DNA of 64,000 nucleotides from an uncultured Clostridia bacterium (GTDB lineage: Bacteria; Bacillota; Clostridia; Christensenellales; UBA1242), in NCBI GenBank assembly GCA_949949035.1, contig CATLHJ010000002.1:53680-117679 (forward strand). The letters are read 5' to 3'. A program made the position numbers and the translations under genes. The notes under the pieces were generated by a model that ran no database searches, had not been told where the DNA came from, and saw only the letters and a list, made by a program, of their open reading frames with translations. Within the stretch, counting starts at the first letter, position 1, and every line of letters begins with the position of its first letter. Positions 3,001-62,356 of this stretch are shown here, piece by piece.

Positions 3001-6000
3001 CGCGTTTGGCGTCAATGACGATGGTACCACCTATAAAGTCCAGACGATGACGATGGACGAATACAAGCAATACGTGCTGTACAACTTGGTTAACGGTAAC
3101 GCCACGATTTCGGAAATTGTAGCGGCCTTGGAACCGTGGTATCGCAGCCTGCCCACCTATATTTCCAGCGCGACCATCAACGGCAAAAATGTGTTTGTCG
3201 AAAAATTGACCGAGACTGCCAAAAATGAATTTGTAACTTGGCTAAGTGATAACGAAGTCTTTAACAATTTTAATGCCTTTACCTATACCGAAACTGATAC
3301 CAGTGGCGCAACGGTTACCAAAAATCGCTTACTAAACGATTACGCGGCCTACCTAGATTACTGTGCCATCAGTCCCGTAGACGCGGGTGAAGCCTGGTTC
3401 CGCGAAAACTTAACTGCTTGCCGTGATCAGCGTTACCAACTGGCCAAAGAATTCTTTGCCTATAAAACAAAAGCCGCTGCCAGCAGCAGTCAATACCCTG
3501 CGAACATTTGTTTCACGTGGGCGCAATACGAAAATTATCGCTACCTGTTGGCGGCCTTGAATATGCAAGAAAACAATTACTATCAATGTCTGTATGGCGA
3601 CGAAGTTTTGAAATACAGTGCGGATATCACGTACATTGCGCTGTGGTTAGATGACCAAAACTTGACCGAACTGGGCGAAGCGCAGGGCACTTCGGGCAAC
3701 CGCGTTAAATTGTCGGGCTACGGTGAATTGCAAAACTTGCTGGACGGTCGGGCGGACGATACCATCCAACAGTTCTCGGTGCGCGATCCGTTACAAGCCT
3801 ACATTAACTTTGTGACGGACGGTTATACGTACCGCCGTACATTGGGAACAATCACCGAAACAATAACCCATTCGCCGTACGGTCAACGTGGGCAAGCGTG
3901 GCAAATGACGTTCAAACAATACGTGCACTTCGTCAACACGATTGCGGGTAACGAATACGGTAACGAAGAAGCCAAAGGTAAATACGACGCGGACTTGATT
4001 GCTGATTATTTCTATTCCTGCTATAACTTAAACCAAGCCGCCAGTTCCGCCATTAACTTGAACGATTATATGGTGTACAAAATTACCGAAATACCTACCG
4101 TTTTGAAAGGTGAATTGGCGTGGATCAAGACCGGTCACCAACAAGGCGACGTCCAACTGGGTAACGTTGGTGCGGTGGAATTGGGCTGGGTGGCTAACGA
4201 AACGACTTGGAAAGATTTGTTGAAGGATACCGCAAAGGTTAAAGTTGAACAACGCGACAATGAAATCGTGTACCTTAATACCCAAGATGGTACACAAGTA
4301 CAAAAAATTTGGGATGCGGCTAACCAATACGAATTGGCGCGCACCCAAGGTTTGGACATCGTCAAGTACCAAGAAATTTGCCGTCTGGGCGGTAGCCTGT
4401 ACGAACTGCGTAAAACGCGCGTCGTAGATGGCAAAACCGAATATATTTACGCGACCGCGGACGCCTATATCTTCTCCTTGAAAGCCGCGCAGTATGGTTG
4501 GACGCCCGACCAAACCAGTTTCATTTCGGGTACCTTCGGTTTGGATAACATCCGTTACGCGCTGTCGGCGACTTATTACGGTAACATCTTGCAACAAACC
4601 TTGGATAACGTCGTGGCCGTGGATACCACCCGCGTAAGACAACACAAATTTGTTGGTAATCGGTGGTTCTATGACGCCAACGATGATGGCGATGAGTTTG
4701 ATACCGATACCGACCGTAAAGGCACGTGGCAGTTAAACGTTGCTGGCGGTAATGTGGGACACACCTTTACTAACGGTGACGGCCAAGTTTATACTTTCGT
4801 CAAGAATCAGGCCATTGACTTGCGCGAAAACACCGATCCAACCAAAGGCAGGGTGCAGGGTGCCGCGTTGTACGTGGACGCGGACGGCGACAAAATGTTT
4901 ACCCTTGACGATGCCGACCAAGCCATTGGCAGTGGTGACAGCCTGGTGCTGTACGAAGTTGCCGAAAGCGAAAACCCTGAATTCAAACAAGACATCAAAG
5001 ACGAAAAGGGCAAAGTTACGGGTACCAAATACTTCAAAATCAGTCGCCGCATATTGCCGAAGGCGGATCGCCAGACCACCAATATCCAAAACGAATATAC
5101 GGATAACACAGCCGATTACTTGGAAGAAGCATTGTGGTGGCAAAGCCAAGGCTTCACCGCCGACCAATTCGACCAAATTAAAGACCACGCCATGCGCGCC
5201 AGCATCCCCGAAGCGGGACAGGTGGTTTTGCAACGCACCGGCACCAATACTTACCAAGTCATGGATCGTGGGGTGGGCTTTACGGTGGCCGATGACTGGT
5301 ACGCCGCGGCCAACGGTGAAACCTACGGCTTCCGTACCGAACGTTTCAGCACCACCGATTATACCACCATTGTCACTAACGCCCAATACGCCACCCGAAC
5401 CGACGCAACCAGCGGTAAAACCACCAATTATTGGTGGTACAGTACCTACGCGGATTATGTTTTGTTCCGCGGCCTGTTAAATGCGGACACCCTGAACGCG
5501 GGCGGCAGTGGCAGTGATTCAATGAAAATCGACGACGCCGAAACCTTGGCCAAAGAATACCTGCCATATCCCGACAATGGCCAACCGTGGTGGGCGCAAC
5601 GACCCGACAACGCGTGGTACGTTGATAACCCGTTTGGTAAAACAGAAAACAGGATGGATGATTTCGTGAATAAGCTGGTGGATGAAAAGGTGTTGGCCTC
5701 GGCCATGGAATTCGGCAGTGACAAAGAAGCGTATTTGAAATTGTTGGCCACGGGGCATACTACCGCGGATTACGTCGCTTGGGCCAAAAATTCCGTCCGT
5801 TCCGCCACGCCTAAAGGTGAATATTTCCGCATGAACCATTACATTTATTGGCAATCGCAAAATAAAGGCGATTTAATTGGTACCAAGGTGACCAATTTCT
5901 GTTTCGCCCTGCAACAAAGCAACCGCGAACTCATTTATTACACGGGCGTTACCCAAGAAGCCCGTACCACCGAATTGTTGGCTTTCAAAGAAGAATGGGA

Positions 6001-16885: not shown

Positions 16886-18410
16886 CAGCAGGGGTATACG
16901 CACCCCTAGCACATAAAGCAAAATTAGTATTGCCTATTGGCGTTGATGTAGTTGTGCCGCCGTCAGGGCAATCGGGAAAAATTAGGTTCATTAGTAGGGC
17001 TTCTTTTTGTCCGCTTTTTAAGTGGAATAAGATTTTCATTTTGTCATCGTACACAATGACGCGGTAGATTAGCGTGTTAATTAACGCCTTACGATTTTGG
17101 AAATTGTCATAATCTAATTCGCGGAAATGGTGTAACCATTTTTGTATATCGGCGTAAGTGTAATTGATTTGCAAGGCTTTTTCGGTCTCAACGGTGTTGG
17201 CTAGGGCTTTATTCTCGTTTTCTAGTTTTTCAATTTGCGCCAAGATTGTGTCAGTGGCTTTGCCGTGCATTAACGCTTGCATTAAGTTGTCGATTGATTT
17301 TTGGTTGGCTGCTACCAAGTTTTCTAGCCGTTTAATCTCGCTGTCGTTTTGTTCAGCTTTAATTAGCGTGTAGGTTTCGGCGGCAATCATATCAATAAAT
17401 TCATCGGTTAAAGTGCGGACAATTTCTTGCACAACGGCGTCTTCAATGATTTTTTGACGGATGGTGCGTTTGTCGCATTGGTGTGATGGAATAATATTGA
17501 CACAGCGGTAGTAATGGTGCAGTTTCCCCGTTTTGCTGGTGGCACTGATGCCCGTCATTTTGGCGCCGCATTTGCCGCAAATCAATTTGTCGGAAAGTAG
17601 GTAAGGAACTTTCGCTTTGCCACGAGCGGGTGCGGCTGCGTATTTAGCAAGCACTTGTTGCACTTGGGTAAACAAATTATCGTCAATAATCCGCGGAATC
17701 CCGCCGTCGGTTTCTTGACCTTGAAAGATGTATTTGCCAAGGTAACGGCGGTTGTTGAAAATGCTGTGAAAACTGTTTTTGTTCCATTTGGCTCCGTGCG
17801 ATGTTTTGATGCCGTGTTCGTTCAGGTAGTCGCCAATTTGTACATAGTTGTAACCACTGGCTAACATTTGGAACATTTTTTTGACGATTGGGGCAGTATT
17901 GTCATCGATGACGATATTTTTCTCGGTGTCAACCTTGTAGCCAAGCGGTACAGCACCACCAAAGAATTTGCATTTAGACGCCGAGATAGCAATGCCGCGT
18001 TTAATTTTCTGGGCGAGTTCTGCCGAGTAATATTCCGCCATACTTTCCAAGACGCCTTCGATTAAAATACCGCTGGCATCGTCAGTAATATTTTCCTTGG
18101 CGGATAACACGCGAACACCGTTTTTCTTTAATTTAGATTTATAAATGGCACTATCGTAACGGTTGCGGGCAAAGCGGTCCAACTGGTAAACAATCACAAA
18201 TTGAAAGGCTTTTTTCTTGCTGTCTTCAATCATTTGCAAAAAGTCTGGTCGTTTATCAGTTGTTCCCGTTAAAGCACGGTCAATGTATTCGTGAATAATG
18301 TGCAAGTCACTGCGTTTGGCGAACGCATAGCATTCTGCTAGTTGCCCTTCGATTGATTGTTCATTTTGTGAGTGTGAACTAAATCGTGCATAAATTACGG
18401 CATTTTTCAT
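16779..18410 (-). CDS. Large serine recombinase (integrase); last ~36 codons overlap tmRNA antisense
   Basis: YARFSS catalytic Ser, DRFARN, recombinase domain, CGKCG...YYRC zinc ribbon, coiled coil. Confidence 0.95.
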   Translation of the reverse strand: MKNAVIYARFSSHSQNEQSIEGQLAECYAFAKRSDLHIIHEYIDRALTGTTDKRPDFLQMIEDSKKKAFQFVIVYQLDRFARNRYDSAIYKSKLKKNGVRVLSAKENITDDASGILIEGVLESMAEYYSAELAQKIKRGIAISASKCKFFGGAVPLGYKVDTEKNIVIDDNTAPIVKKMFQMLASGYNYVQIGDYLNEHGIKTSHGAKWNKNSFHSIFNNRRYLGKYIFQGQETDGGIPRIIDDNLFTQVQQVLAKYAAAPARGKAKVPYLLSDKLICGKCGAKMTGISATSKTGKLHHYYRCVNIIPSHQCDKRTIRQKIIEDAVVQEIVRTLTDEFIDMIAAETYTLIKAEQNDSEIKRLENLVAANQKSIDNLMQALMHGKATDTILAQIEKLENENKALANTVETEKALQINYTYADIQKWLHHFRELDYDNFQNRKALINTLIYRVIVYDDKMKILFHLKSGQKEALLMNLIFPDCPDGGTTTSTPIGNTNFALCARGAYTPAVVETSGIEPESDWFLVRTSTYIVVIYFPTDKLTTK

Positions 18411-18460
18411 TTTTTACTCCTTTTTTGCCTTAAAAGGCAAGGCTCCGCCATTGCCGCTTG

Positions 18461-18579
18461 GCTACCCGTCCCACTGGCGACAGCAAGGACAGTCAAGGGT
18501 CTGCCACGCAGTGGACGGCGTTTTATGCCTAACGGGAGATAAATCGCCGCCCTTGACGGTGCTTGCCGACAGTGGTAGC
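18461..18579. promoter_or_regulatory. Long branched stem-loop in the integrase leader
   Basis: Nested pairings CCACTG/CAGTGG, GCAAG/CTTGC, GTCAAGGG/CCCTTGAC, GGCGTTTTAT/ATAAATCGCC. Confidence 0.55.
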
Positions 18580-18871
18580 AGAAAAACATTGTTTCAATGT
18601 AGATATTACTTGCTGGTTTGACTTGTGGATTTTTGTCGTAATCTTAGATAAATTGACGATTATAAAAAACTTTTAGTAAAAACCTTGCCATTTGCCTTTC
18701 CCCGTGTCTATAGGTAGGGGCTATAAAAATAAAACCTTAACACCCCCTGCGTGAAGTGCTTATAGGTAGGGGGCACGGCGGGCAATGGCGGCGCAGCCGC
18801 CTTGCCCGCGGGCGTGTATAGTATTACCACGCCACCCCGTAACACTGTAACAACATTAAAAGGAGTAGAAG

Positions 18872-19060
18872 ATGTGTAAAACGAATAATTTGCCAAATCG
18901 CTTTGACGGTATTTCAGTTATCTATTTTGATGACAAAAGTCGCAACCGCTACGTGAAATTACCGGCGGATCAAGAACTGGCAAAACAGTTAGCCAGTTTG
19001 CTTTATCACAATGTAAAAATCACAATTAGCCAAGACAAGCAAAAGGAGACTGTAAAATGA
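18872..19060 (+). CDS. Small hypothetical protein, coupled to the tyrosine recombinase
   Basis: AAGGAG SD; ATGA overlap with the next gene. Confidence 0.65.
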   Translation: MCKTNNLPNRFDGISVIYFDDKSRNRYVKLPADQELAKQLASLLYHNVKITISQDKQKETVK

Positions 19061-19974
19061 AATATCAAAATTGGTTAAACGAATGGTTGGAAAATTATAT
19101 TAAACCGACCCATAAGCAACGGACTTACGATCGCTATTGGCAAGTTGTCAATACCCATATTTTGGCAAGTTTGGGTAATTATGAGTTAAATGCTATCACA
19201 CCCTTGATCCTGCAAAAGTATGTTGCCCAGTTGCTGCAAAACGGTAATCAGCAAACGGGGCAGTCATTGTCTGCAAATACGGTTAATGGCATTATTTCAA
19301 TTTTGCAATCGTCCTTAAAAACGGCGTATACCTTGGGGCTGTGCGACGAATACGTCGGCAATAAAATTGCCCGTCCCAAAATCACCGAAAAACAAGTTTC
19401 GTGTTTTAACCTGACAGAACAAAAACAAATTGAACACTATGTCCTCACTAACAAAAAGTTCAAACTTTATGGTGTGATAATTTGTTTGTATACAGGTTTA
19501 CGTATCGGCGAATTATTAGGATTAGAGTGGCGTGATCTTGATTTTAATAAAGGCATTTTGACAGTATCCAAGACAGTTTACGATCACCAAGGTCAGCGCT
19601 GTATTGATACTCCGAAAACAATCACTTCTTGCCGCATGATTCCGTTGCCCAAACAATTGCTGCCGGTCTTGAGAAACTTAAAGCAAAATACCAAATCAAA
19701 CTGTATAGTGGTGGATAAAGATAATCGTCCTATCTCGGTCCGCAGTTACCAACGCAGTTTTGAATTATTACAAAAGAAATTGAAAATTGCCCATCGGGGG
19801 TTTCACGCTTTGCGGCATACTTTCGCTACGCGGGCATTGGAGTGCGGTATGGATGTAAAATCACTTTCGGAAATCTTGGGGCATAAAAATACCAGCATTA
19901 CACTTAATCGTTACGTGCATTCGCTACTGGAACATAAGCAATCAATGATGAATAAACTTGGTAAATTGTTATAG
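19057..19974 (+). CDS. Tyrosine recombinase, probable DNA invertase
   Basis: TGLRIGE, PKT, FHALRHTFAT, ILGH, RYVH catalytic set; 305 aa with no arm-binding domain; inverted repeat starts 5 nt after the stop. Confidence 0.93.
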   Translation: MKYQNWLNEWLENYIKPTHKQRTYDRYWQVVNTHILASLGNYELNAITPLILQKYVAQLLQNGNQQTGQSLSANTVNGIISILQSSLKTAYTLGLCDEYVGNKIARPKITEKQVSCFNLTEQKQIEHYVLTNKKFKLYGVIICLYTGLRIGELLGLEWRDLDFNKGILTVSKTVYDHQGQRCIDTPKTITSCRMIPLPKQLLPVLRNLKQNTKSNCIVVDKDNRPISVRSYQRSFELLQKKLKIAHRGFHALRHTFATRALECGMDVKSLSEILGHKNTSITLNRYVHSLLEHKQSMMNKLGKLL

Positions 19975-19979
19975 AAAAG

Positions 19980-20002
19980 TGTTCATCAAATATTTTAATC
20001 GG
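19980..20002 (+). repeat. Left inverted repeat of the invertible segment (TGTTCATCAAATATTTTAATCGG)
   Basis: Exact reverse complement of 20114-20136. Confidence 0.92.
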
Positions 20003-20021
20003 CGTACATATTTACAATAAA

Positions 20022-20050
20022 ACTATACCATAGTCACCTGAAAATCGCAA
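20022..20050 (-). promoter_or_regulatory. sigmaA promoter inside the invertible segment, currently facing away from the methyltransferase
   Basis: Minus strand TTGCGA-17-TATAGT with extended -10 TG. Confidence 0.8.
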
Positions 20051-20113
20051 ACAAGTTATCAAAATTGTTCATTTACATGATATTTACCGCCACAAATTGC
20101 TCCATTTTGTTCT

Positions 20114-20136
20114 CCGATTAAAATATTTGATGAACA
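20114..20136 (-). repeat. Right inverted repeat of the invertible segment (CCGATTAAAATATTTGATGAACA)
   Basis: Exact reverse complement of 19980-20002. Confidence 0.92.
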
Positions 20137-20174
20137 AATGTTTTGTCGTTATGTACATAAAATGGGAGTTACAA

Positions 20175-21113
20175 ATGGCAAATCAATCACTTAATAAGGC
20201 AAAGATTGAAAAGAATGATGAATTTTATACTTTAATGAGTGATATTGAAAACGAATTATCAAGATATGATTTCTCCCAATTCAAAGATAAAATTGTATAT
20301 TGTAATTGTGATGACCCTACATGGAGCAACTTTTTTAAATTTTTTACTAAGTGGGGTAAGCGTATGGGAATTAGTGAAGTCCATTTTACCAATTATGCCA
20401 ATACAAAAAGAAAATGGAATAAACAATTAACACTTTTTGAAGCGCTTGATTTAAAGGAAAGTGCAGAAGATGATAGATGTGGTACGGCACACCATTGGAC
20501 TTTTTATCCAGAAACTAATCAAATTACTAAAAGAAATCTTAAGGGTAATGGAGACTTTCGTAGCCTGGAGTGTATTGAAATTTTAAGGAAATGTGATATA
20601 GTCGTCACTAATCCACCATTTAGTATTTTTAATGATTTTCTCAATCTACTTATTAAATATGATAAATCGTATTTGATAATTAGTGATGATAATAAATTAT
20701 CGAATATTGATATTTTTCCATTAATAAAAGCCAACAAACTTTGGTTAGGCTATACTCGAGTAAAAAAGTTTTTACAACCAGATGGCACATACAAAACTTT
20801 TGGAAACAAATGTTGGTATACAAATTTAGAAGTAACATATCGTCGGCAACCAGTTATTTTACATGATCAAGACCTAACGCGATTCAAAAAATATGATAAT
20901 TACAACGCTATTGAAATTCCCGAAGTTAAATATATCCCAGATAGTTATTATGAACCCATTGGATTACCGATAACTTTTTTACATAAATTTTGTCCTGAAC
21001 AGTTTGAAATAATTGGTATGTCAGGTGTAGATATAAAAATCAAGGGTGGACGCTTTTATGTGGCGGGTAGACGCTTGCAGCCAAGATTAGTTGTTCAAAG
21101 GAGAAAAATATAA
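20175..21113 (+). CDS. Adenine-specific DNA methyltransferase, EcoRI-methylase family
   Basis: KNDEFYT, YCNCDDP, GDFRS, VTNPPFS; start moved to ATG 20175 behind a GGGAG SD. Confidence 0.9.
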   Translation: MANQSLNKAKIEKNDEFYTLMSDIENELSRYDFSQFKDKIVYCNCDDPTWSNFFKFFTKWGKRMGISEVHFTNYANTKRKWNKQLTLFEALDLKESAEDDRCGTAHHWTFYPETNQITKRNLKGNGDFRSLECIEILRKCDIVVTNPPFSIFNDFLNLLIKYDKSYLIISDDNKLSNIDIFPLIKANKLWLGYTRVKKFLQPDGTYKTFGNKCWYTNLEVTYRRQPVILHDQDLTRFKKYDNYNAIEIPEVKYIPDSYYEPIGLPITFLHKFCPEQFEIIGMSGVDIKIKGGRFYVAGRRLQPRLVVQRRKI

Positions 21114-21114
21114 A

Positions 21115-22191
21115 ATGCAATATCAAATCGCAATTAGAACAATCAAAGATTTGCTGAATGATCAAGTATATTTAACCAATATCAATATGCAAAGAAAGTA
21201 TATTTACAACCACGAACAGGCATCTCATTTACTTGATAGTATTCAAAAGGGAATACCAATTCCAGCAATTTATTTGTGGGATAACCGTGATGGTACTTTT
21301 GATGTATTAGACGGGAAGCAGAGAATAACTGTCATGCGTTTATATGTTAATCCAAAATATTTACCTGGCGGAGTGCATAATTTTTTCATTGACCACATGG
21401 ACATTAGAAATTTTGAAAGCTATCAAATTCCCGTCATTATTTGTTCTGGAACCGAAGAAGAGAAAATTGAAACGTTTAAGCGAATTAATACTACTGCGGT
21501 TGCCTTAAAAGAATTTGAAATTTACAACGCGTTATATCAGGGAACTTTTGTTGAAGAATTTGGTAACTGGGGCATTGGCTTATCACCAAACGAAGAATTG
21601 TTTTTCGGTAAAAGCATAAGGGGTGAAAACTGTATTAAAGCAGTAAAATTATTTACTGAGAAACCAGAAAATTATTTTAAGCATAATCGCAATCAATCCT
21701 TTGTGAATGGACTTAAAAGAGAGCTTGATGTTTTGGTTGAAACCACGCTTAACCTGTTCAAGGATTACGGAAATGATTATTACATTTTGGCTAAAATTGT
21801 ACTAGAAAATATTAATAATATCTCGTTAATTAATAGTTGGAAATTAAACAAAAGAACAATTACCGATTTATTAATTGAGTATGCTAATAACGGCGAATTG
21901 GCTAACGCACCCAGCCGTGAAAGTTTTTATAAGGAATTATTAGGTTGTTATACAATTACAGGTTTAGACAGTAAGCGGTTTTTCACAAAAGATGATAAAA
22001 AAGCCTTATATGAAAAATTAAGTAAAGGATTGAGTAGTGGAAAAAGAGTTTGTCCAACCTGTGGCAAAGAATTTAGTTTTGACCAATTCGAAGTCGACCA
22101 TGTTTTGCCTTGGAGTAAAGGCGGCAAGACGTGTTTAGATAACGCCCAATTATTGTGTAAGGGCTGTAATGTTAAGAAAAGCAATCAATAA
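21115..22191 (+). CDS. DUF262 (GmrSD/ParB-like) + C-terminal HNH endonuclease
   Basis: QR..Y, LLDSI..GIPIP, LDGKQR, FKRIN; CPTC...DHVLPWSKGG...NAQLLC..CN. Confidence 0.9.
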   Translation: MQYQIAIRTIKDLLNDQVYLTNINMQRKYIYNHEQASHLLDSIQKGIPIPAIYLWDNRDGTFDVLDGKQRITVMRLYVNPKYLPGGVHNFFIDHMDIRNFESYQIPVIICSGTEEEKIETFKRINTTAVALKEFEIYNALYQGTFVEEFGNWGIGLSPNEELFFGKSIRGENCIKAVKLFTEKPENYFKHNRNQSFVNGLKRELDVLVETTLNLFKDYGNDYYILAKIVLENINNISLINSWKLNKRTITDLLIEYANNGELANAPSRESFYKELLGCYTITGLDSKRFFTKDDKKALYEKLSKGLSSGKRVCPTCGKEFSFDQFEVDHVLPWSKGGKTCLDNAQLLCKGCNVKKSNQ

Positions 22192-22365
22192 ATAGTTTTA
22201 ATAGTGAGCAATTGATTGTTTAATTAGTACTTAATGTGATTGAAAATTTATTATTCTTTATGCTTATCGGGCATATACAGCAAATATTTCAGAATTCTAA
22301 AACTAATTTAAAATCAAATATAAATATGTTATAATCGGATTATAAAATCCAGGAGAAAAACGAAA

Positions 22366-23109
22366 ATGATTCCGAAAGAGTTACTTCAGAATGAATATAA
22401 GTCTTGGTTGCAGCAGAATGTTAAAACAGAGTCAAGTAGGAATAAGTATTTTTCTGCGATACAAATTATAAGTAAAGAAATGTTGGCACTTAAGGTAATA
22501 GATAAAGATCTGTTTGAGGTAGTAAATTTTGAAGATTTTATAATCTTATGTGATAAAATATTAAAAAATAATTTCTTTATCAAGAAAGATCGGGTTGGAC
22601 ACAATATGTATAGTTCAGCATTGCGTAATTATTATAGAAATTTTTTGGCTGAAAAGTTTTATTGTGACAATGATATTGTATTAGATATGAATACATCTAC
22701 ATGGACTGATGAGACTGACAAAGGAGAATATAGAGCAGAAATATCGTTATCAACATTGTCTAAATTGCAAGAACTTAAAAGTGGGAATATAACCGAAGGT
22801 GAAAAAAGAAAAATTCAATCTTATGTTTACGAAAGAAATAGTAGAGCAAGGCTTCTGTGTATAGAGCATTATGGTTCAGTATGTCAAGTTTGTGGTTGCG
22901 ATATGGCGAAAATCTATGGGGAAGAATTTACTGGTAAGATACATGTCCATCATAAAGTGCCACTAAATGAAATTGCACAATCATATGAAGTTGATCCAAT
23001 AAAAGATTTAGTACCTGTGTGCCCTAATTGTCATATGATACTACATTGCAAGAAAGATGGTTATTATACGGTGGACGAGATTAGAGAGAAAATTAATAAG
23101 TTGAGGTAA
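22366..23109 (+). CDS. HNH endonuclease, McrA-like C-terminal domain
   Basis: EG...YERN..AR..CIEHYG..CQVC, HVHH, VCPNCH..LH; AGGAG SD and upstream TATAAT. Confidence 0.88.
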   Translation: MIPKELLQNEYKSWLQQNVKTESSRNKYFSAIQIISKEMLALKVIDKDLFEVVNFEDFIILCDKILKNNFFIKKDRVGHNMYSSALRNYYRNFLAEKFYCDNDIVLDMNTSTWTDETDKGEYRAEISLSTLSKLQELKSGNITEGEKRKIQSYVYERNSRARLLCIEHYGSVCQVCGCDMAKIYGEEFTGKIHVHHKVPLNEIAQSYEVDPIKDLVPVCPNCHMILHCKKDGYYTVDEIREKINKLR

Positions 23110-23316
23110 ATTATTACGTATATCTATAACTACAATCTATACTATGAAAGTGTTGTAGACTAAAGAAAAGTAATAAATCTTTGATTCAAAAGTTTTTAAA
23201 AAATTATAGATTATTGAGATATAGGAAATTAAGTTAATAAAAAGTAATACACAGTTTGATAAAAAACGTGTATTATTATTATGGGATTTATTAAATAAGT
23301 GTTATAAGAGGTAAGA

Positions 23317-25479
23317 ATGAAAAAAGTTCAAGTTTCTAATATCAAAATTCACCCCAGATCAATTGAGGCGATGGGGGCAAGTTTGGTTACTAATGATAAT
23401 GTAGCGATTTTAGAATTAGTTAAAAATGCATATGATGCATTCGCATATAAAGTCAATATAACATTTAGTCACGACAATTCAAAGATAACTATTATTGACG
23501 ATGGTATTGGAATGACCCTAGATGATATAACTGAAAACTGGGCGACCATATCTACAACATATAAAGTTGATAACAAATATATTGAACGTAATGGTATTAA
23601 GCGTATAACATCTGGAAACAAAGGATTAGGGCGATTATCCGCTTCAAGATTGGGTGGAAAATTAACACTTATAACAAAAGCAAAAAATTCACCAATTTTA
23701 AAAACGGTATTTGTTTGGGACAATTTTTATGAACAAGAAAGTCCAGAAGATTGCAAATTTGATATATACGAATTAGACGTAGATGAGGATATAAAAGAAA
23801 CTGGCACAAAATTAATAATTGAAGACCTTAAGGCAAGTTGGGAATCAAGTAAAATTGACGATTTGAAAATAGAATTAGAAAGACTAATTAATCCATTTGA
23901 TGGCAATAAGGATTTTGTTATTACGTTAAATGATAAAATTGAGCCATTAACTATTTTTGATCATTATGAAAATACTGGAATTGTCGAAGTAAACAAATTA
24001 ATTTCGGATCCAGTCTATAAAGTAACTGGAAGTGTTGATGATGAGTTAAACGTAGACTATACTTTTGAATATTTTGAGAACTATAATTCCAAAGATAAAA
24101 GAAATAAAAAGGTATTGAAAGGTTTTATATCTTGGGATGAAATTAAAGAAAAGTGCAATGATAGTAATTCTGAAACTATTCCTTATCATGATGATATAAC
24201 TTGCGGAAAGTTTGGTTTTGAGTTTAGAATTTGGGAATTACAATCAGATTATCTTAATGAAATTGCAAATAGATATGGATTAAAATCAACCAGTATAGTA
24301 AGAAAAATTATAAATAATCAGAAAGGGATATCAGTTTATAGAGATGGAATTTTGGTTTTGCCAAAATCTGAAAATTCTAGAGATTGGTTAGGGCTAGACA
24401 AAAAGCGTATAAGTCAAATAGGTCGAAGATTATCTACAGCACAAATAATTGGTCAAATTAATATTTCGATCAATGAAAATCCTAAGTTACTAGATACTTC
24501 TAGTAGGGAAAGTTTTGTTAAAAACGAAGAGTTTGATAACTTCTACGCAGTTTGTGTAGCTGGAATCATTAATAAAATTCAGCAGTTGCGTTTACAAGTT
24601 AAGCCAGATGCAACTAATCGTCCTAATGTGAAAGACTTTTTTAAAGATGCATCGCCAGATAAACTAAATTCAGCTGTTGAAGATGCTGTTAAACAAAACA
24701 AATCAATTAGTGAAGTGCAGCAAGTTGTGCAAGATTATAGTAGGGAACTTAAAAGGAGTTTGGCTCTGCTAAAGGAGAGAGTTGAATATTATGCACAGTT
24801 AGCTTCAGCTGGTACCTTCAGTAAGGTAATAATTCATGAAATAAAGAATAACACCAACCCAGTTAAACGCTTTAATAGGAGCGTATATGAAATATATTCA
24901 CCATTTAACGAAAGACTTAACAATTATTATAAATTGTCTTGTGATGGATGTGATAGATTAATAAAATTATCTGATACTTTTGCACCTTTAAGTAGGACAA
25001 CTTTCAAAACAGAAAAGCATACTTGTGATCTATATTCAGAATCGAATAATGTTTTGCTCTTAATGAATGATTATTTAACAAATAACAACATTGTAGTTAC
25101 AAATAATATTCCAAAAGGGATTACCGTAAAGTTACATAGCGGTGAAATACAGACTATTTTAATTAATCTTTTAGACAATGCTATATATTGGGTTTGCAGA
25201 AACAAAAATCTGAATGATAAATTAATTCAATTTAGTGTGGAAGAATGTGATAATGGCTTTATTGAAGTAAGAGTTTCAGATAATGGTATTGGTGTTGATC
25301 CGAATCTTGGGGAGAAAATATTTGAGCCTGGAATAACATCTAAGCCTTCGGGTTTTGGTATGGGACTTGTTGTAGTTAATGAAATTGTATCAACACATTC
25401 GGGATATTTAAAAAACATACAACCAGGTGAAATAGCAGATGGTGCAACATTTGCTTTTACGGTTCCAGTGGAGGAGTAA
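23317..25479 (+). CDS. GHKL (MORC-like) ATPase fused to a C-terminal histidine kinase module
   Basis: N-terminal ELVKNAYDA, DDGIGM, GNKGLGRLS; C-terminal HEIKN, NLLDNAIYW, DNGIG, IFEPG, GFGMGL. Confidence 0.88.
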   Translation: MKKVQVSNIKIHPRSIEAMGASLVTNDNVAILELVKNAYDAFAYKVNITFSHDNSKITIIDDGIGMTLDDITENWATISTTYKVDNKYIERNGIKRITSGNKGLGRLSASRLGGKLTLITKAKNSPILKTVFVWDNFYEQESPEDCKFDIYELDVDEDIKETGTKLIIEDLKASWESSKIDDLKIELERLINPFDGNKDFVITLNDKIEPLTIFDHYENTGIVEVNKLISDPVYKVTGSVDDELNVDYTFEYFENYNSKDKRNKKVLKGFISWDEIKEKCNDSNSETIPYHDDITCGKFGFEFRIWELQSDYLNEIANRYGLKSTSIVRKIINNQKGISVYRDGILVLPKSENSRDWLGLDKKRISQIGRRLSTAQIIGQINISINENPKLLDTSSRESFVKNEEFDNFYAVCVAGIINKIQQLRLQVKPDATNRPNVKDFFKDASPDKLNSAVEDAVKQNKSISEVQQVVQDYSRELKRSLALLKERVEYYAQLASAGTFSKVIIHEIKNNTNPVKRFNRSVYEIYSPFNERLNNYYKLSCDGCDRLIKLSDTFAPLSRTTFKTEKHTCDLYSESNNVLLLMNDYLTNNNIVVTNNIPKGITVKLHSGEIQTILINLLDNAIYWVCRNKNLNDKLIQFSVEECDNGFIEVRVSDNGIGVDPNLGEKIFEPGITSKPSGFGMGLVVVNEIVSTHSGYLKNIQPGEIADGATFAFTVPVEE

Positions 25480-26480
25480 TGAAAGTATTAATAGCGGAAG
25501 ATAAATTAGAAACAATACAATCTATAACAGATCATTGCAGTGATAATAGTATAGAGTATCAAATAATCCAAGATTTTAATGATGTTTTATCTACATTAGC
25601 AACAACACATTTTGATGCATTAATTTTAGATTTAAAGAAAGATCCTGGTGAGGAATATCCTGGATATGATATATTTAATCAGATATGGGCAGAAAGATTT
25701 ATCCCTATCATTATTTATTCTTCATATTATGATAATCTACCTAATAAGGTTGACCATCAGTTTGTTTCGTACTTTGATAAGTCCGAAGAGGAAAAGGTAA
25801 TAGTTCGCTTGACTGAGTATTTAAGTATGAGCGAAAAAATTACTAAAATTCGTAGTAAAATGAATGATTTATTTATACAAGCTTTAAGGTTCGTTAATAA
25901 TAACGACTCGAATGATGTTCAATTTCAAAGAGTATTGATTGGGATGAAAAATTATCTTGACGAGGACAATCCCAACCTTTCGTTACCAGCAGATGTGCAA
26001 TACTTGGTTTTACCTCAATATCAATCATTAGCGACTTGTGATATTGTTGAGACTATTCCACAACACAATACAGAATCTGAATTTTATATGATTATGTCAC
26101 CGTGGTGTGAAATTGCGCAAGCAGGAAGTCCGATTGAATTAGAATGTAAGAAAATTATTGATAATTCTTCTGTGAATAGTGAGACAAGAAATACTATTAA
26201 AAACCATAGCAATGAAGGTGGGTATAGAAATTATATTTTGCTTCCCGATTGTAAAAAGTTGAAAAAAAAAATCGTTGATGTAACGAAGACTGTTATAATA
26301 AAAAATGATCAAATATCACTCAATCCAAACGAAACAGATTTAAATAGATATAAATATAGAAAAATAATTTCAATAGCAAGTCCATTTCGTGAAAGGATGA
26401 TTGCCTTATGTTATAACAATAGATCGCGTATCGGTGTGCCAAACTTAAATAAGGATAGTTGGTGGATCGATGAAAATTAA
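25479..26480 (+). CDS. Response-regulator receiver domain + unknown C-terminal domain
   Basis: KVLIAED, LILDL (acceptor Asp), IPIIIYS; coupled to the kinase gene. Confidence 0.82.
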   Translation: MKVLIAEDKLETIQSITDHCSDNSIEYQIIQDFNDVLSTLATTHFDALILDLKKDPGEEYPGYDIFNQIWAERFIPIIIYSSYYDNLPNKVDHQFVSYFDKSEEEKVIVRLTEYLSMSEKITKIRSKMNDLFIQALRFVNNNDSNDVQFQRVLIGMKNYLDEDNPNLSLPADVQYLVLPQYQSLATCDIVETIPQHNTESEFYMIMSPWCEIAQAGSPIELECKKIIDNSSVNSETRNTIKNHSNEGGYRNYILLPDCKKLKKKIVDVTKTVIIKNDQISLNPNETDLNRYKYRKIISIASPFRERMIALCYNNRSRIGVPNLNKDSWWIDEN

Positions 26481-27618
26481 AGCGATAGACCTGTTTTCAG
26501 GCTGCGGGGGAGTTTCTTGTGGATTAATTAATGCTGGGTTTAATGTTACAGGAGCCGTAGAAATAAATAAAGATGCAGTAAGAACCTACAAAAATTATAA
26601 AAGATTACAACATGTTAATGTTATTAATGATGATATTCGTAATGTTGATGGTTTTGAATTACTAAAACAAAGCCAGATTGAACCTAGCGATATTTACTTA
26701 TTGGCAGGTTGCCCACCTTGTCAAAATTTTTCATCGCAGAATAGGTCTGGAAGATTAAAAACAGAAACAGAAAAAGAAGCATTATTAATGGAATATTTAA
26801 GAATTATTAAACAAGTGTATCCACCGTTTGTTTTACTTGAAAATGTTTCTGGTATTACAAGTCCATGTAATAAAAACATATTAAATAAATTTATAAATGA
26901 ATTAAAAAATGAAAAAGATACTTGTGCGGAACACCAATATTTTGTGCTGTGTAGTATATTAAACGCCGCCAATTTTGGTGTGCCACAAAGACGTCGTAGG
27001 TTTGTGCTACACGCTATTAGAAAGGATATATATAATCTACTCAAAAGCCAAAATATTGGTGTTTCATTACCAAGAGAAACTCATAATAAGAATGGTGATC
27101 ATGGTTTGAACAGATGGGTATCAGTATGGGATGTTATATCTGATTTACCACCGATAGAAGCTGGACAACATTTTAATTCAGGAACAATTAAAAACCACAC
27201 TTGTGCCAATTTATCTGAACTTAACATCCGAAGAATGGAATATATACGAAATAATGGAGGTAGTAGAAGTAGTCTACCTGATGATCTACAATTAAATTGT
27301 CATAAGAATTATTCAGGGCATAAAGATGTTTATGGAATTATAGATCCTAATCTTCCCGCTCCTACTATGACGGGAGGGTGTTTATGTTATTCGAAGGGAC
27401 GTTTTGGACATCCATATCAAAATAGAGCTCTATCAATAAGAGAAGCGGCTAGGATACAAACTTTCCCTGATGATTTTATTTTTGACGATTTGACAACAAA
27501 GTCAGGACTGCAAATAGGCAATGCTGTCCCGGTTAAATTAGTTGAAGTTTCTGCAAAAAATATACTACTTGAAATAGTCAATTATCAAAAATTATTGAGA
27601 AAATCTTCTAATAAATAG
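26470..27618 (+). CDS. dcm: DNA cytosine-C5 methyltransferase
   Basis: DLFSGCGG, GCPPCQ, ENV, PQRRRR, EAARIQTFP, GNAVP. Confidence 0.95.
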   Translation: MKIKAIDLFSGCGGVSCGLINAGFNVTGAVEINKDAVRTYKNYKRLQHVNVINDDIRNVDGFELLKQSQIEPSDIYLLAGCPPCQNFSSQNRSGRLKTETEKEALLMEYLRIIKQVYPPFVLLENVSGITSPCNKNILNKFINELKNEKDTCAEHQYFVLCSILNAANFGVPQRRRRFVLHAIRKDIYNLLKSQNIGVSLPRETHNKNGDHGLNRWVSVWDVISDLPPIEAGQHFNSGTIKNHTCANLSELNIRRMEYIRNNGGSRSSLPDDLQLNCHKNYSGHKDVYGIIDPNLPAPTMTGGCLCYSKGRFGHPYQNRALSIREAARIQTFPDDFIFDDLTTKSGLQIGNAVPVKLVEVSAKNILLEIVNYQKLLRKSSNK

Positions 27619-61234: not shown

Positions 61235-61786
61235 ATGCCTACACAAATTACGCATCTGGCCATCGCTAAACGTTATTTGGCACAACATCCGCACCAGATC
61301 AAGGACACGCAGCGTTTCCTTGATGGCAATGTGATGCCTGATTTAGTACCCGAAAAGGCGGCAGCGCATTGCGGAGTACGTACGGAGTTTAAGGACTTGG
61401 TGAAACGCAATCGGGAAAAGGTTAATCCCGAATTGTATCGTGCTACTCATGATATGAATGACGACTTTCACAAAGGTTGGTATTTGCATTTGTTGACCGA
61501 CGACCAATTTTATAATGTTTTTTTACGGGAATATTGTGCGGGCGTCAGTATCGATCAATCATCGATTGATATATTTGAAACCACACAACGCGATAAGGCC
61601 TATTTAATTGCTAAATACGGGGTTAGTTATAATGACGTCACTGATGCTCAAGCATTGATTGACATCAATGTCGCGTACGAAAAAGATCATCACCAACGTT
61701 ACGGCTACGATTACCAATTTACCATGCCATACACTTTGGCAGAATTGGACGCCTTTATCGAGCGAATAGCGCAGGCAACCATTTAA
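61235..61786 (+). CDS. Hypothetical protein, Zn-dependent phospholipase C-like fold
   Basis: MP...THL, G...PD, H, G.YLHL.TD. Confidence 0.65.
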   Translation: MPTQITHLAIAKRYLAQHPHQIKDTQRFLDGNVMPDLVPEKAAAHCGVRTEFKDLVKRNREKVNPELYRATHDMNDDFHKGWYLHLLTDDQFYNVFLREYCAGVSIDQSSIDIFETTQRDKAYLIAKYGVSYNDVTDAQALIDINVAYEKDHHQRYGYDYQFTMPYTLAELDAFIERIAQATI

Positions 61787-62226
61787 TTTTGCAATTTATC
61801 AATAAATAAAATGCCGTCCATGTGGTCCATCTCGTGACCGCAACAAACGGCGTCGCGACCGCGAAAGGTTTGGGTATGTGGTTGGCCGTTACGGTCTTGA
61901 AATTCTACCGTAACCAAGTGTGGACGACGTACGCGACCGCTGATTCCCGGACAAGACAGGCAACCTTCGCCCGCTACGCGCAGGTTTTTGGCCGCTTTGA
62001 TAATGGGGTTAATGATTTCCACAATGCCAAATTCGTCGGTTAATAAGACCGCCATGCGATAAAGTACGCCAACCTGCACCGCAGCAATGCCCACACCATT
62101 AGCGCGGAGCATGGTTTCTTGCATATCGTCTAATAGTTCGTGCACGCGTGGTGAAAAATCATCAACTGGTTTGCTGTGCTTGCGGAGCAGTGGGTTACCT
62201 TCTTTGATAATTGTTAATCTTGCCAT
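61783..62226 (-). CDS. def: Peptide deformylase
   Basis: GVGIAAVQ, EGCLS, HEMDH. Confidence 0.95.
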   Translation of the reverse strand: MARLTIIKEGNPLLRKHSKPVDDFSPRVHELLDDMQETMLRANGVGIAAVQVGVLYRMAVLLTDEFGIVEIINPIIKAAKNLRVAGEGCLSCPGISGRVRRPHLVTVEFQDRNGQPHTQTFRGRDAVCCGHEMDHMDGILFIDKLQN

Positions 62227-62356
62227 ATAAAACATTATAACACCAGATATGGTGGTGTGCAATTAAAATATTGGTATATATAGTGGTAATTATGATAATA
62301 ACAAATACTAGATATAGCCTTTGCCGACAAACGTTATTTTGTGTTATCATATAATT

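What the first reader, a model, noticed from the sequence alone, without database searches (positions are those of the whole stretch)
19057..22191. Invertible promoter switch controlling a methyltransferase + DUF262-HNH restriction pair, caught in the OFF state
Seen: a perfect 23-bp inverted repeat (19980-20002 / 20114-20136; 29 bp with 2 mismatches) begins 5 nt after the tyrosine recombinase stop and encloses 111 bp. Each extended site has a TGTTC...G(T/A)ACA dyad, as expected for two recombinase-binding arms around a spacer. Inside lies a near-consensus sigmaA promoter (TTGCGA-17-TATAGT, extended -10) on the minus strand, so it now fires antisense into the recombinase gene. Inverted, it would fire into the SD and ATG (20175) of the EcoRI-family adenine methyltransferase and the coupled DUF262-HNH gene; I see no other promoter for them. 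Established: tyrosine invertases flip promoters (FimB/FimE; Bacteroides invertible promoters). Inference: this is a phase-variable whole-system ON/OFF defence or epigenetic switch, and the OFF state may damp its own invertase by antisense transcription.
Basis: partly seen in the sequence, partly recalled or inferred. Interest (0 to 1): 0.92.

Follow-up and report, generated by a model that had tools for sequence, protein, structure and literature searches.

The report
Invertible promoter switch for restriction-modification genes
A short flippable piece of DNA carrying a promoter sits between a recombinase gene and a DNA-methylase/nuclease pair, so this gut bacterium can probably switch a whole restriction-modification system on and off; here it is parked in the off position.

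Summary
IR arms 19980-20008 and 20108-20136 match at 27 of 29 nt, 23 of them perfect. No repeat in 200 simulated windows was as long. The arms begin 5 nt after an intact tyrosine recombinase gene. They enclose a minus-strand TTGCGA-17-TATAGT promoter with a TG extension. Downstream lie an EcoRI-family N6A methylase (NPPF motif) and a tightly linked DUF262-HNH protein that matches a PADLOC Type II REase model.

- The genome holds two more copies of the module (paralogous recombinase, same half-site motif, promoter segment), placed upstream of BspA-type surface proteins.
- The recombinase subfamily occurs in 53 of 401 genomes of the bacterial family.
- Most readable loci have an IR-flanked 100-130 bp promoter segment next to a DNA methylase, from four Pfam classes in all.
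- Two relatives (L111, L112) carry the same segment in opposite orientations (100 of 104 nt identical after flipping).
- 8 of 30 contigs end inside the switch.

Inversion in this organism itself was not seen, because only contigs of poorly matching runs were available. 22 of 23 readable tyrosine-class switches are OFF-oriented. Read-through from the co-directional recombinase gene could give basal expression. This is a new variant of a known kind.

The parts
18872..19060 (+). 62-aa ORF overlapping the recombinase start by 4 nt; function unknown, possibly an accessory factor co-transcribed with the recombinase
   Evidence: ORF. No Pfam or NCBIfam hit. Conserved in frame only in G016 (60% aa identity).
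19057..19974 (+). Tyrosine site-specific recombinase, 305 aa; the putative invertase
   Evidence: Phage_integrase E 1.8e-29 plus Phage_int_SAM_3. The stretches GLRIGE, HALRHTF, LGH and LNRYVH are present. Closest solved structure is chain 6en0_A, deposited as 'Int protein' (E 1.9e-20). dN/dS against G016 is 0.07.
19980..20008 (.). Recombinase-proximal recombination site (IRL): two 13-nt arms around TTT
   Evidence: 28 of 29 nt identical in G016.
20009..20107 (.). Invertible core, 99 bp between the 29-nt arms
20022..20050 (-). Promoter TTGCGA-17-TATAGT with TG extension, now pointing at the recombinase 3' end (OFF). After inversion it would lie at about 20066-20094 on the + strand, about 80 nt upstream of the methylase ATG (my arithmetic).
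   Evidence: The -10 element is conserved in G016 and G003. Equivalent TGnTAnAAT elements occur in homologous switches.
20108..20136 (.). Distal recombination site (IRR)
   Evidence: 26 of 29 nt identical in G016.
20175..21113 (+). EcoRI-family N6-adenine DNA methyltransferase, 312 aa, with GGGAG Shine-Dalgarno 6 nt upstream
   Evidence: PF13651 E 5.5e-82. PADLOC MTase_II E 1.6e-72. NPPF at residue 146. dN/dS 0.05.
21115..22191 (+). DUF262 (ParB-like, DGKQR) plus HNH nuclease, 358 aa; the putative restriction endonuclease, its ATG 1 nt after the methylase stop
   Evidence: GmrSD_N plus HNH. PADLOC REase_II PDLC03418 E 2e-30 over residues 24-358. The sequence EVDH...N...N with two CxxC pairs is present. 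dN/dS 0.03.

Best explanation
This is an inverton. The tyrosine recombinase (19057-19974) binds the four 13-nt arms of two inverted 29-bp sites and flips the 99-bp core that carries a strong sigma-A-type promoter.

In the assembled orientation the promoter fires away from the two-gene Type II-like restriction-modification operon (EcoRI-family m6A methylase, then DUF262-HNH nuclease). The operon is therefore OFF, or at most at a basal level from read-through. After inversion the promoter sits about 80 nt upstream of the methylase start and drives both genes (ON).

The result is a reversible, heritable ON/OFF choice for phage restriction and for genome-wide adenine methylation within a clonal population. 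The methylase-first, closely linked gene order would let methylation lead restriction at switch-on.

Shown: the anatomy, its conservation, the family-wide link to methylases, and opposite orientations of one homologous switch. Inferred: that this copy flips, that the promoter is active, and the phenotypes.
For: 1. The IR is far beyond chance and dyad-structured.
2. The recombinase is intact and under purifying selection, as are both target genes. The IR arms are 28 of 29 and 26 of 29 nt identical to G016, although synonymous sites are near saturation (dS 1.0-1.6).
3. The same genome holds two more modules with paralogous recombinases (64-65% aa identity), the same half-site motif and a TTGCAT/TTGCAA-17-TATAAT promoter in a 94-96 bp IR-flanked core. 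They sit upstream of BspA-type LRR surface proteins. The half-site motif clusters only at these three loci.
4. G016 and G003 keep recombinase, IR, promoter, EcoRI-type methylase and DUF262 protein.
5. The recombinase subfamily is in 53 of 401 genomes of the family. Readable loci have an IR-flanked 99-130 bp segment next to DNA methylases of four Pfam families: EcoRI_methylase, DNA_methylase C5, Eco57I/N6_Mtase and N6_N4_Mtase.
6. L111 (G250) and L112 (G423) share the recombinase-side flank but carry the core in opposite orientations (flipped alignment 100 of 104 nt, score 188 against 26). In L112 the promoter faces a C5 methylase.
7. 8 of the 30 loci are contigs that end inside the switch (L098, L099, L100, L107, L110, L111, L113, L123). 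About 0.5 would be expected from the contig counts and sizes (my estimate). A ninth (L102) has a run of N exactly between its IR arms.
8. In another genus (G026) the same kind of methylase plus DUF262-HNH pair has an IR-flanked TGTTATAAT promoter facing the methylase, next to a small serine recombinase.
Against: - No read or contig shows this locus in the other orientation. The one contig that spans the switch (X1 record 8) has the assembled orientation, and no strand-changing joint was reported in the 4 runs laid. Those runs are contigs, which drop minor variants, and they hold at most 0.26 of the query words.
- All 6 loci of this site family (3 in G000, 3 in G016) and 22 of 23 readable tyrosine-class switches overall have the promoter facing the proximal site. 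If the switches flip, they are strongly OFF-biased in the sampled populations. Alternatively, that orientation has a function of its own.
- The promoter is a consensus match only, in a region where such matches are not enriched.
- The recombinase gene is co-directional and no terminator was predicted between it and the methylase.
- One paralogous recombinase (G000 contig C5) has an in-frame TAA stop, so copies can decay.
Confidence: 0.78

Rival explanations
1. LOW/HIGH modulator rather than a true ON/OFF switch. The operon is always transcribed at a basal level by read-through from the upstream, co-directional recombinase gene. The invertible promoter only adds strong expression in one orientation, and convergent (antisense) interference in the other.
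For: The recombinase, switch and operon share one strand, and no intrinsic terminator was predicted between 19974 and 20175. The proximal site does not fold as RNA in either direction (-1.5 and -7.3 kcal/mol, neither better than shuffles).
Against: The strong convergent promoter would oppose read-through. A hairpin that pairs the methylase Shine-Dalgarno with the core's right end (20100-20175, -16.9 kcal/mol, z -2.3) would further limit translation in the OFF orientation, but it is not conserved in G016. In G148 the core carries its own terminator-like hairpin facing read-through. In the divergent-architecture relatives read-through is impossible, yet the same switch design is used.
Confidence: 0.25
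2. Relic or locked switch. The module descends from a functional inverton but no longer flips in this lineage, so the R-M pair is permanently silent or expressed by other means.
For: Only one orientation is seen in G000 and G016, at 6 of 6 loci. One paralogous recombinase carries a stop codon. The IR arms have 2 mismatches.
Against: The recombinase is intact with dN/dS 0.07, and the target genes have dN/dS 0.03-0.05. The arms are conserved well above the neutral level. A silent nuclease and methylase would not stay under such constraint.
Confidence: 0.1
3. The recombinase is the integrase of a mobile element and the repeats are its attachment or terminal sites. No programmed inversion occurs.
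For: The closest solved structure is chain 6en0_A, deposited as 'Int protein'; from recall, not from a call, this is the Tn1549 conjugative-transposon integrase. The locus lies in a defence island beside a large serine recombinase. Paralogues sit next to Rep and KilA-N genes. Some homologues (L011, L119) have no switch, and L119 lies next to a tRNA-like stretch.
Against: Integration gives direct repeats at the two ends of an element, not two inverted sites 100 bp apart at one end. The segment always carries a promoter and always abuts a target gene start. L111 and L112 show a true inversion with fixed flanks.
Confidence: 0.04
4. A fixed promoter makes a short antisense or small RNA, and the repeats are operator sites for a DNA-binding protein. 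Nothing inverts.
For: In 22 of 23 readable switches the promoter faces the proximal site. In most of them that site is a hairpin plus U-run, which would give a transcript of about 40-50 nt.
Against: The transcript would be little more than the hairpin. Site sequences co-vary between proximal and distal copies within each locus while differing between loci, as expected for recombination partners. L112 has the promoter at the other end, on the other strand.
Confidence: 0.04

Closest known systems
FimB/FimE-fimS switch of E. coli type 1 fimbriae (recalled; named in the review PMC11868660, passages seen)
   Same: A tyrosine recombinase is encoded next to a short IR-flanked segment whose promoter drives the neighbouring operon in one orientation only.
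   Different: NCBIfam 'tyrosine-type DNA invertase' models score 26.8 and 18.9 bits against cut-offs of 222 and 221, so this is not that family. Here the recombinase has 305 aa and a SAM-like N-domain, the sites are 29-bp dyads, the core is about 100 bp, and the target is an R-M operon.
Clostridioides difficile RecV invertons (flgB, cwpV, cmrRST, pdcB/C; PMC5386303 and PMC5903667 seen as listing or passages)
   Same: Found in Clostridia. A tyrosine recombinase flips small IR-flanked regulatory segments in 5' regions. In the paralogues and several relatives examined here, a terminator-like hairpin is part of the OFF logic.
   Different: From recall, RecV is one trans-acting enzyme for many sites. 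Here each switch has its own adjacent recombinase paralogue with co-varying sites. Targets here are DNA methylases and R-M pairs, and BspA proteins.
Type I R-M hsdS shufflons / 'epigenetic invertons' (S. pneumoniae PsrA, B. fragilis; PMC7672463, PMC4948785, PMC7641763 abstracts)
   Same: A tyrosine recombinase next to an R-M system makes methylation phase-variable by site-specific inversion.
   Different: Those inversions reshuffle specificity-gene coding sequence and change the target motif. Here a promoter is flipped and the whole methylase-plus-nuclease operon is switched ON or OFF.
Phasevarions (ON/OFF Type III or Type I mod genes by simple-sequence repeats; PMC11868660 passages)
   Same: The expected outcome is random ON/OFF of a DNA methyltransferase, with genome-wide epigenetic and defence consequences.
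   Different: The mechanism is slipped-strand mispairing in coding repeats, not recombinase-driven promoter inversion. No nuclease of the DUF262-HNH kind is involved.
Bacteroidales invertible promoters and PhaseFinder invertons (Jiang et al. 2019, cited in PMC11741434; original not held), and invertons within 2 kb of R-M systems or orphan methylases (PMC11741434 passages)
   Same: Gut bacteria; IR-flanked promoter segments with a neighbouring invertase. The preprint classifies invertons near Type I, II and III R-M loci as potential epigenetic phase variation.
   Different: In the passages I read, the described cases are rearrangements of methylase or specificity-gene fragments. I saw no described case of a promoter inverton driving a Type II-like methylase plus DUF262-HNH pair, nor a recombinase subfamily devoted to methylases. 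Its supplementary tables were not available to me.
GmrSD / BrxU Type IV restriction enzymes (PMC4619093 passages)
   Same: The N-terminal DUF262 ParB-like domain has a DGxQR motif (DGKQR here), and the C-terminus is a His-Me finger nuclease.
   Different: The C-terminus is a classical HNH (PF01844) with zinc-ribbon cysteines, not DUF1524. The protein is only 358 aa. It is paired with a methylase and matches a PADLOC Type II REase model end to end. This points to methylation-sensitive rather than modification-dependent cutting; that is an inference.

Membership tests
Tyrosine site-specific recombinases (PF00589) | Catalytic domain with the Arg...His-x-x-Arg...His/Trp...Tyr residues | tested here: met
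   PF00589 103 bits against a cut-off of 27.1. GLRIGE, HALRHTF, LGH and NRYVH are present.
Inverton / invertible promoter | Pair of inverted repeats flanking a short segment, more than chance | tested here: met
Inverton / invertible promoter | Promoter inside the segment that faces the target gene in only one orientation | tested here: inconclusive
   Consensus match with an extended -10, conserved in position in homologues. No transcript data are available.
Inverton / invertible promoter | Site-specific recombinase encoded nearby | tested here: met
   The recombinase ends 5 nt before the IR.
Inverton / invertible promoter | Both orientations present in a population or among strains | tested here: inconclusive
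   Not seen for this locus. Seen for a homologous switch of the same recombinase subfamily, L111 against L112. Contig breaks inside the switch in 8 of 30 loci.
FimB/FimE-type DNA invertases (NCBIfam NF007371, NF007370) | Score above the curated cut-off | tested here: not met
   26.8 and 18.9 bits against cut-offs of 222 and 221.
XerC/XerD/XerA chromosome-dimer resolvases | Score above the curated cut-off | tested here: not met
   The best score is XerA at 91.4 bits against a cut-off of 220.
Type II restriction-modification system | Separate methyltransferase with an intact catalytic motif | tested here: met
   EcoRI_methylase 276 bits. PADLOC MTase_II. NPPF present.
Type II restriction-modification system | Adjacent endonuclease of a family recorded as a Type II REase | tested here: met
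   PADLOC REase_II PDLC03418, E 2e-30, residues 24-358 on profile positions 37-372 of 372. HNH motif intact.
Type II restriction-modification system | Nuclease cuts the unmethylated site that the methylase protects | not testable with these tools
   Needs enzymology or a methylome.
GmrSD Type IV restriction enzymes | DUF262 fused to DUF1524 | tested here: not met
   Only the first 76 of 199 DUF262 profile positions match, and the C-terminus is PF01844 HNH, not DUF1524.

The most novel reading that the evidence does not exclude
A dedicated and mobile recombinase-plus-invertible-promoter cassette family has repeatedly been placed in front of DNA methyltransferase and R-M operons of at least four unrelated methylase classes, and in front of BspA adhesin-like genes. 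It occurs in a family of uncultured Clostridia with genomes of about 1 Mb. Whole Type II-like R-M systems, nuclease included, are thereby run as OFF-biased phase-variable genes.

The recombination site next to the recombinase doubles as a transcription terminator that insulates the parked promoter. A serine-invertase version has evolved in parallel for the same methylase plus DUF262-HNH pair.

This would be a promoter-inversion 'phasevarion' and defence bet-hedging system. It would also be a natural case of cells surviving the switch-on of a Type II nuclease on an unmethylated genome.
Probability: 0.55. Interest if true: 0.72.

Novelty: new variant of a known kind. Interest (0 to 1): 0.6.

Why it matters
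Phase-variable R-M systems are known to reprogram methylomes and to trade phage defence against gene uptake. The known routes are repeat slippage in Type III, Type I and Type IIG genes, and hsdS shuffling in Type I systems.

A promoter inverton that switches a separate methylase and its nuclease together poses an unanswered question: how does a cell survive turning on a Type II nuclease when its genome is unmethylated? The locus offers a compact, clonable module to test that, consisting of one recombinase, two 29-bp sites and a 99-bp core.

The family-wide pattern (53 of 401 genomes, four methylase classes) suggests that ON/OFF epigenetic heterogeneity is a general strategy in these tiny-genome gut Clostridia. 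It would also explain methylases that appear silent in methylome surveys. The recombinase-site pairs, which co-vary from locus to locus, may be orthogonal and therefore useful as genetic switches.

Tried and rejected
- Reads. The look-up of sequencing runs found only Logan contigs, with at most 0.26 of the query words. Read laying on X1, X3, X5 and X7 gave no strand-changing joint. Parts of the R-M operon had no cover; that is no finding. X5 record 24 ends with 9 loose letters after 19999, which equal the arm expected at a recombined proximal site of the G016 type. The contig stops there and the strain differs (19 differences in 326 nt), so I treat it as a hint only. A 'skips 105' joint (19999 to 20105; one contig, 20 letters on the shorter side) could not be interpreted.
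- 20-mer scans of metagenome contigs and genome contigs. 41 stretches came back. 40 were single hits with no recombinase or methylase homologue, which I take to be chance matches. Only L041 holds a real locus.
- Pattern search for a hypothetical recombined paralogue site in 401 family genomes. It hit only the four existing distal sites, with 1 mismatch each, so it gave no ON-state evidence.
- Genus search around G423. There were no further copies of the L112 core; one more OFF-oriented switch (L126) turned up.
- The 62-aa ORF as a Rep remnant: rejected.
- G011 contig C25 as the missing other side of the G011 switch: rejected, because its methylase has an HTH regulator upstream instead.
- The OFF-state terminator idea for this locus: rejected, because the proximal site of the window and of G016 does not fold. 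It does hold for the paralogues, G003 and three loci of the divergent class.
- Literature. Five searches and passages of six papers gave no described promoter inverton for a Type II-like R-M pair. Supplementary tables were not open, and Jiang et al. 2019 is not held, so a listed but undescribed case may exist.
No structure or complex prediction was run, because no claim needed one.

Full report
**What is in the sequence.**
- The repeat finder reports arms 19980-20008 / 20108-20136 (29 nt, 93% complementary, 99 nt between). The perfect core is 23 nt with 111 nt between.
- It is the longest perfect inverted repeat with a 30-400 nt gap in the window; the next is 15 nt. In 200 first-order Markov simulations of 64 kb the longest was 18 nt once and otherwise 15 nt or less.
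- Each site is a dyad of two 13-nt arms around a 3-nt centre.
- The minus-strand promoter is TTGCGA-17-TATAGT with a TG extension, at 20050-20022.
- The promoter scan as a whole is uninformative: 17 sites found against 17.4 expected. The promoter therefore has to be judged by position and conservation.

**Genes.**
- 19057-19974 encodes a 305-aa tyrosine recombinase (PF00589 plus a SAM-like N-domain). The stretches GLRIGE, HALRHTF, LGH and NRYVH, which I read as the catalytic residues, are present. The closest solved structure is chain 6en0_A, deposited as 'Int protein'. It fails the curated cut-offs of the Xer, integron and FimB/E-type models.
- 20175-21113 is an EcoRI-family N6A methylase with NPPF.
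- 21115-22191 starts 1 nt after the methylase stop. It has a DUF262 N-terminus (DGKQR) and a zinc-ribbon HNH. It matches PADLOC's REase_II model PDLC03418 over nearly its full length.
- I therefore read the pair as a Type II-like R-M system, not a GmrSD Type IV enzyme, because no DUF1524 domain is present.
- The locus lies in a defence island. A large serine recombinase is upstream. Downstream are an HNH-like protein, a GHKL ATPase, a 333-aa protein and a C5 methylase.

**Paralogues in the same genome.**
- The window is contig C2 of a 1.09-Mb, 44.5% GC assembly.
- Two other loci (C5 at about 61.5 kb, C4 at about 77 kb) have recombinase paralogues with 64-65% aa identity.
- Each has a pair of 26-27-nt inverted sites built from the same half-site motif, 94-96 nt apart. 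Inside is a TTGCAT/TTGCAA-17-TATAAT promoter.
- The half-site motif clusters only at these three loci in the genome.
- Their targets are BspA-type LRR / Listeria-Bacteroides-repeat surface proteins, which are classic phase-variation targets.
- The C5 recombinase has an in-frame TAA stop.

**Orthologues and the wider family.**
- G016 has the whole locus at 81% nt identity, in the same orientation. The arms are 28 of 29 and 26 of 29 nt identical and the -10 is conserved. Meanwhile dS between the genes is 1.0-1.6 and dN/dS is 0.03-0.07.
- G003 has recombinase, different but co-varying IRs (28 nt, 110 nt apart), a TGtTATAGT promoter, a 399-aa EcoRI-type methylase and a DUF262 protein.
- A protein search found the recombinase subfamily in 53 of 401 genomes of the bacterial family at E <= 1e-60.
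- Two architectures appear:
  - Co-directional: recombinase, then switch, then target (recombinase 57-81% identical to the window's).
  - Divergent: recombinase and target point away from each other, with the switch in the shared intergenic region (45-51% identical). Seen.
- Targets identified:
  - EcoRI-type methylase with a DUF262-HNH partner: G107, G063, G087, G084, G351 (for the first four; for G351, where only the partner's first 65 residues are in the locus).
  - EcoRI-type methylase, downstream gene outside the fetched stretch: G166, G148, G178; G148 and G178 are recognised only from their N-terminal residues.
  - A C5 methylase: L112.
  - An Eco57I/N6_Mtase: L121.
  - N6_N4 methylases: L097 and L102.
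- Some homologues have no switch (L011, L103-L105, L114, L117, L119). Not every member is an invertase.

**Evidence that such segments invert.**
1. L111 (G250) and L112 (G423), in the same genus, share the recombinase-side flank and outer arm. The core of L112 aligns to that of L111 only after reverse-complementing (100 of 104 nt, score 188 against 26). In L112 the TGTTATACT promoter faces the C5 methylase (ON). In L111 it faces the proximal site (OFF).
2. Of the 30 loci returned, 8 are contigs that stop inside the switch (L098, L099, L100, L107, L110, L111, L113, L123). L102 has a run of N exactly between its arms.
   - From the rounded contig numbers and genome sizes, I estimate about 0.5 such ends by chance for a 300-nt target.
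   - This is indirect, and mobile regions break assemblies anyway.
3. In G026, in another genus, the homologous methylase plus DUF262-HNH pair has a 27-nt IR pair 129 nt apart with a TGTTATAAT promoter facing the methylase. A 199-aa serine recombinase lies divergently upstream. G054 has a similar IR-flanked segment with no adjacent recombinase.
4. For this locus itself there is no such evidence. The runs found hold at most 0.26 of the query words and are contigs. One contig spans the switch in the assembled orientation. One contig of a related strain ends with an arm that fits a recombined site, but it stops there.

**Orientation bias.**
- I read the sequences by eye with an extended -10 pattern. 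By that reading, 22 of 23 tyrosine-class switches have the promoter next to, and pointing into, the recombinase-proximal site.
  - 9 are co-directional; L097 among them is weak.
  - 9 are complete divergent switches.
  - 4 are divergent switches cut by a contig end.
  - Only L112 is ON.
- These genomes are related, and the C4 loci of G000 and G016 are identical, so the counts are not independent.
- The bias fits an OFF-favoured switch for a costly or dangerous operon. It also leaves room for a function of the parked state.

**How it most likely works.**
- The recombinase binds the four arms, pairs the sites and exchanges strands in the AT-rich centre. Outer arms stay and inner arms swap, as seen in L111 and L112.
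- In the ON state the promoter would lie at about 20066-20094 on the plus strand and give a leader of about 75 nt through the distal site to the GGGAG Shine-Dalgarno and the ATG at 20175 (my arithmetic).
- Methylase-first order and the 1-nt gap to the nuclease ATG would favour methylation before restriction. This is an inference.
- In the paralogues, in G003 and in three loci of the divergent class (G107, G063, G084), the proximal site folds into a strong hairpin followed by a U-run in the direction of the parked promoter (-13 to -18 kcal/mol, z -1.6 to -4.1). The recombination site therefore doubles as an insulator.
- In the window and in G016 it does not fold (-1.5 and -2.6 kcal/mol). That feature is not conserved.
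- The recombinase is co-directional and no terminator is predicted before the methylase. Basal read-through expression cannot be excluded.

**Comparison with known systems, and novelty.**
- In mechanism this is an invertible promoter of the fimS, RecV or Bacteroides kind, but it is not a member of the FimB/E family.
- R-M phase variation by inversion is described for Type I hsdS shufflons. ON/OFF variation is described for repeat tracts in Type III, Type I and Type IIG genes (abstracts and passages).
- One paper remarks that invertible promoters controlling methylases 'may be common' (PMC10333322, passage).
- A preprint counts invertons within 2 kb of Type I-III R-M loci, enriched in Clostridiales. 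The cases I could read there are rearrangements of methylase or specificity genes (PMC11741434).
- In five searches I found no described promoter inverton for a Type II-like methylase plus DUF262-HNH pair, and no recombinase subfamily devoted to methylases. Supplements and Jiang et al. 2019 were not available to me.
- I rate it a new variant of a known kind.

**Limits.**
- There are no raw reads, no RNA data and no methylome.
- Promoters are predicted only.
- Orientation counts were made by eye on MAG consensus sequences.
- The taxon is known only from one record title printed by a tool (L041, 'uncultured Eubacteriales bacterium').
- The runs with near-identical contigs cover only the serine-recombinase part of the query, so I claim no habitat.

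Noticed in passing
G000 contig C5 about 61658-62566 (L057:3650-4567, minus strand): The paralogous recombinase at the C5 switch has an in-frame TAA stop at codon 230, before the catalytic Tyr. Its G016 counterpart is intact.
   Followed up: partly
L057:4611-5618 and L058:5277-6254, 3220-4056: Rolling-circle or viral-type Rep genes (Viral_Rep plus helicase; REP_ORF2-G2P) and a KilA-N gene lie directly upstream of the two paralogous recombinases. The REP_ORF2-like gene has three more copies in the genome and the KilA-N gene two more. These may be small integrated ssDNA elements or hot spots for them.
   Followed up: partly
G000 contig C4 about 76.9-77.3 kb compared with G016 contig C4 about 95.1-95.5 kb: The C4 switch region appeared identical (compared by eye) between G000 and G016 over the roughly 380-415 nt printed, whereas the window locus is only 81% identical. 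This suggests recent horizontal transfer of that module, or a binning overlap.
   Followed up: no
L067 (G026:C1:74000-84000) 2598-5076: The serine-invertase version of the switch sits beside SMODS/AGS-C and SLATT genes, a CBASS-like pair. That locus is also a defence island.
   Followed up: no
window 20100-20175 (+): The RNA fold pairs CUCCAUUUU at the right end of the invertible core with the methylase Shine-Dalgarno AAAAUGGGAG (-16.9 kcal/mol, z -2.3). It would mask translation of read-through transcripts only in the OFF orientation. It is not conserved in G016, so it may be chance.
   Followed up: partly
window 22366-27618: Downstream defence genes: a 247-aa HNH-like protein (weak Type IV mREase hit) with its own TTTAAA-17-TATAAT promoter at 22307-22335, a 720-aa GHKL ATPase, a 333-aa protein and a C5 methylase.
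   Followed up: no
L108 (G097:C37, contig end): The contig ends in a stretch that I recognise, from memory, as a Nextera transposase adapter, about 97 nt upstream of the recombinase start. This is an assembly artefact, not a switch.
   Followed up: no
L102 (G126:C24), downstream of the recombinase: A run of N lies exactly between two inverted arms (AAATTACTTTATTCAATACTCATTTTT and its complement). G126 is not on the tool's list of genomes with withheld bases, so it looks like a scaffold gap at an unresolved invertible segment.
   Followed up: no
window 17500-18840: Contigs of rat-gut runs X1 and X3 match the serine-recombinase region with 0 differences, but cover the tyrosine recombinase and R-M module only patchily or with many differences. 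The serine-recombinase element seems to circulate with other cargo.
   Followed up: no
L084-L087, L106-L122: intergenic regions of the divergent class: A second conserved motif (AAGGACATCTAA-like) occurs between the recombinase start and the proximal site. It occurs again inverted inside the core (for example L086, 22 nt at 73%) or directly repeated near the target start (G107). These may be accessory binding sites.
   Followed up: no
L120 (G241) and L123 (G275), upstream of the recombinase: About 160 extra nt are inserted between the recombinase start and the switch. L120 shows only one hybrid-looking site and no recognisable core. It may be a deleted or rearranged switch.
   Followed up: no
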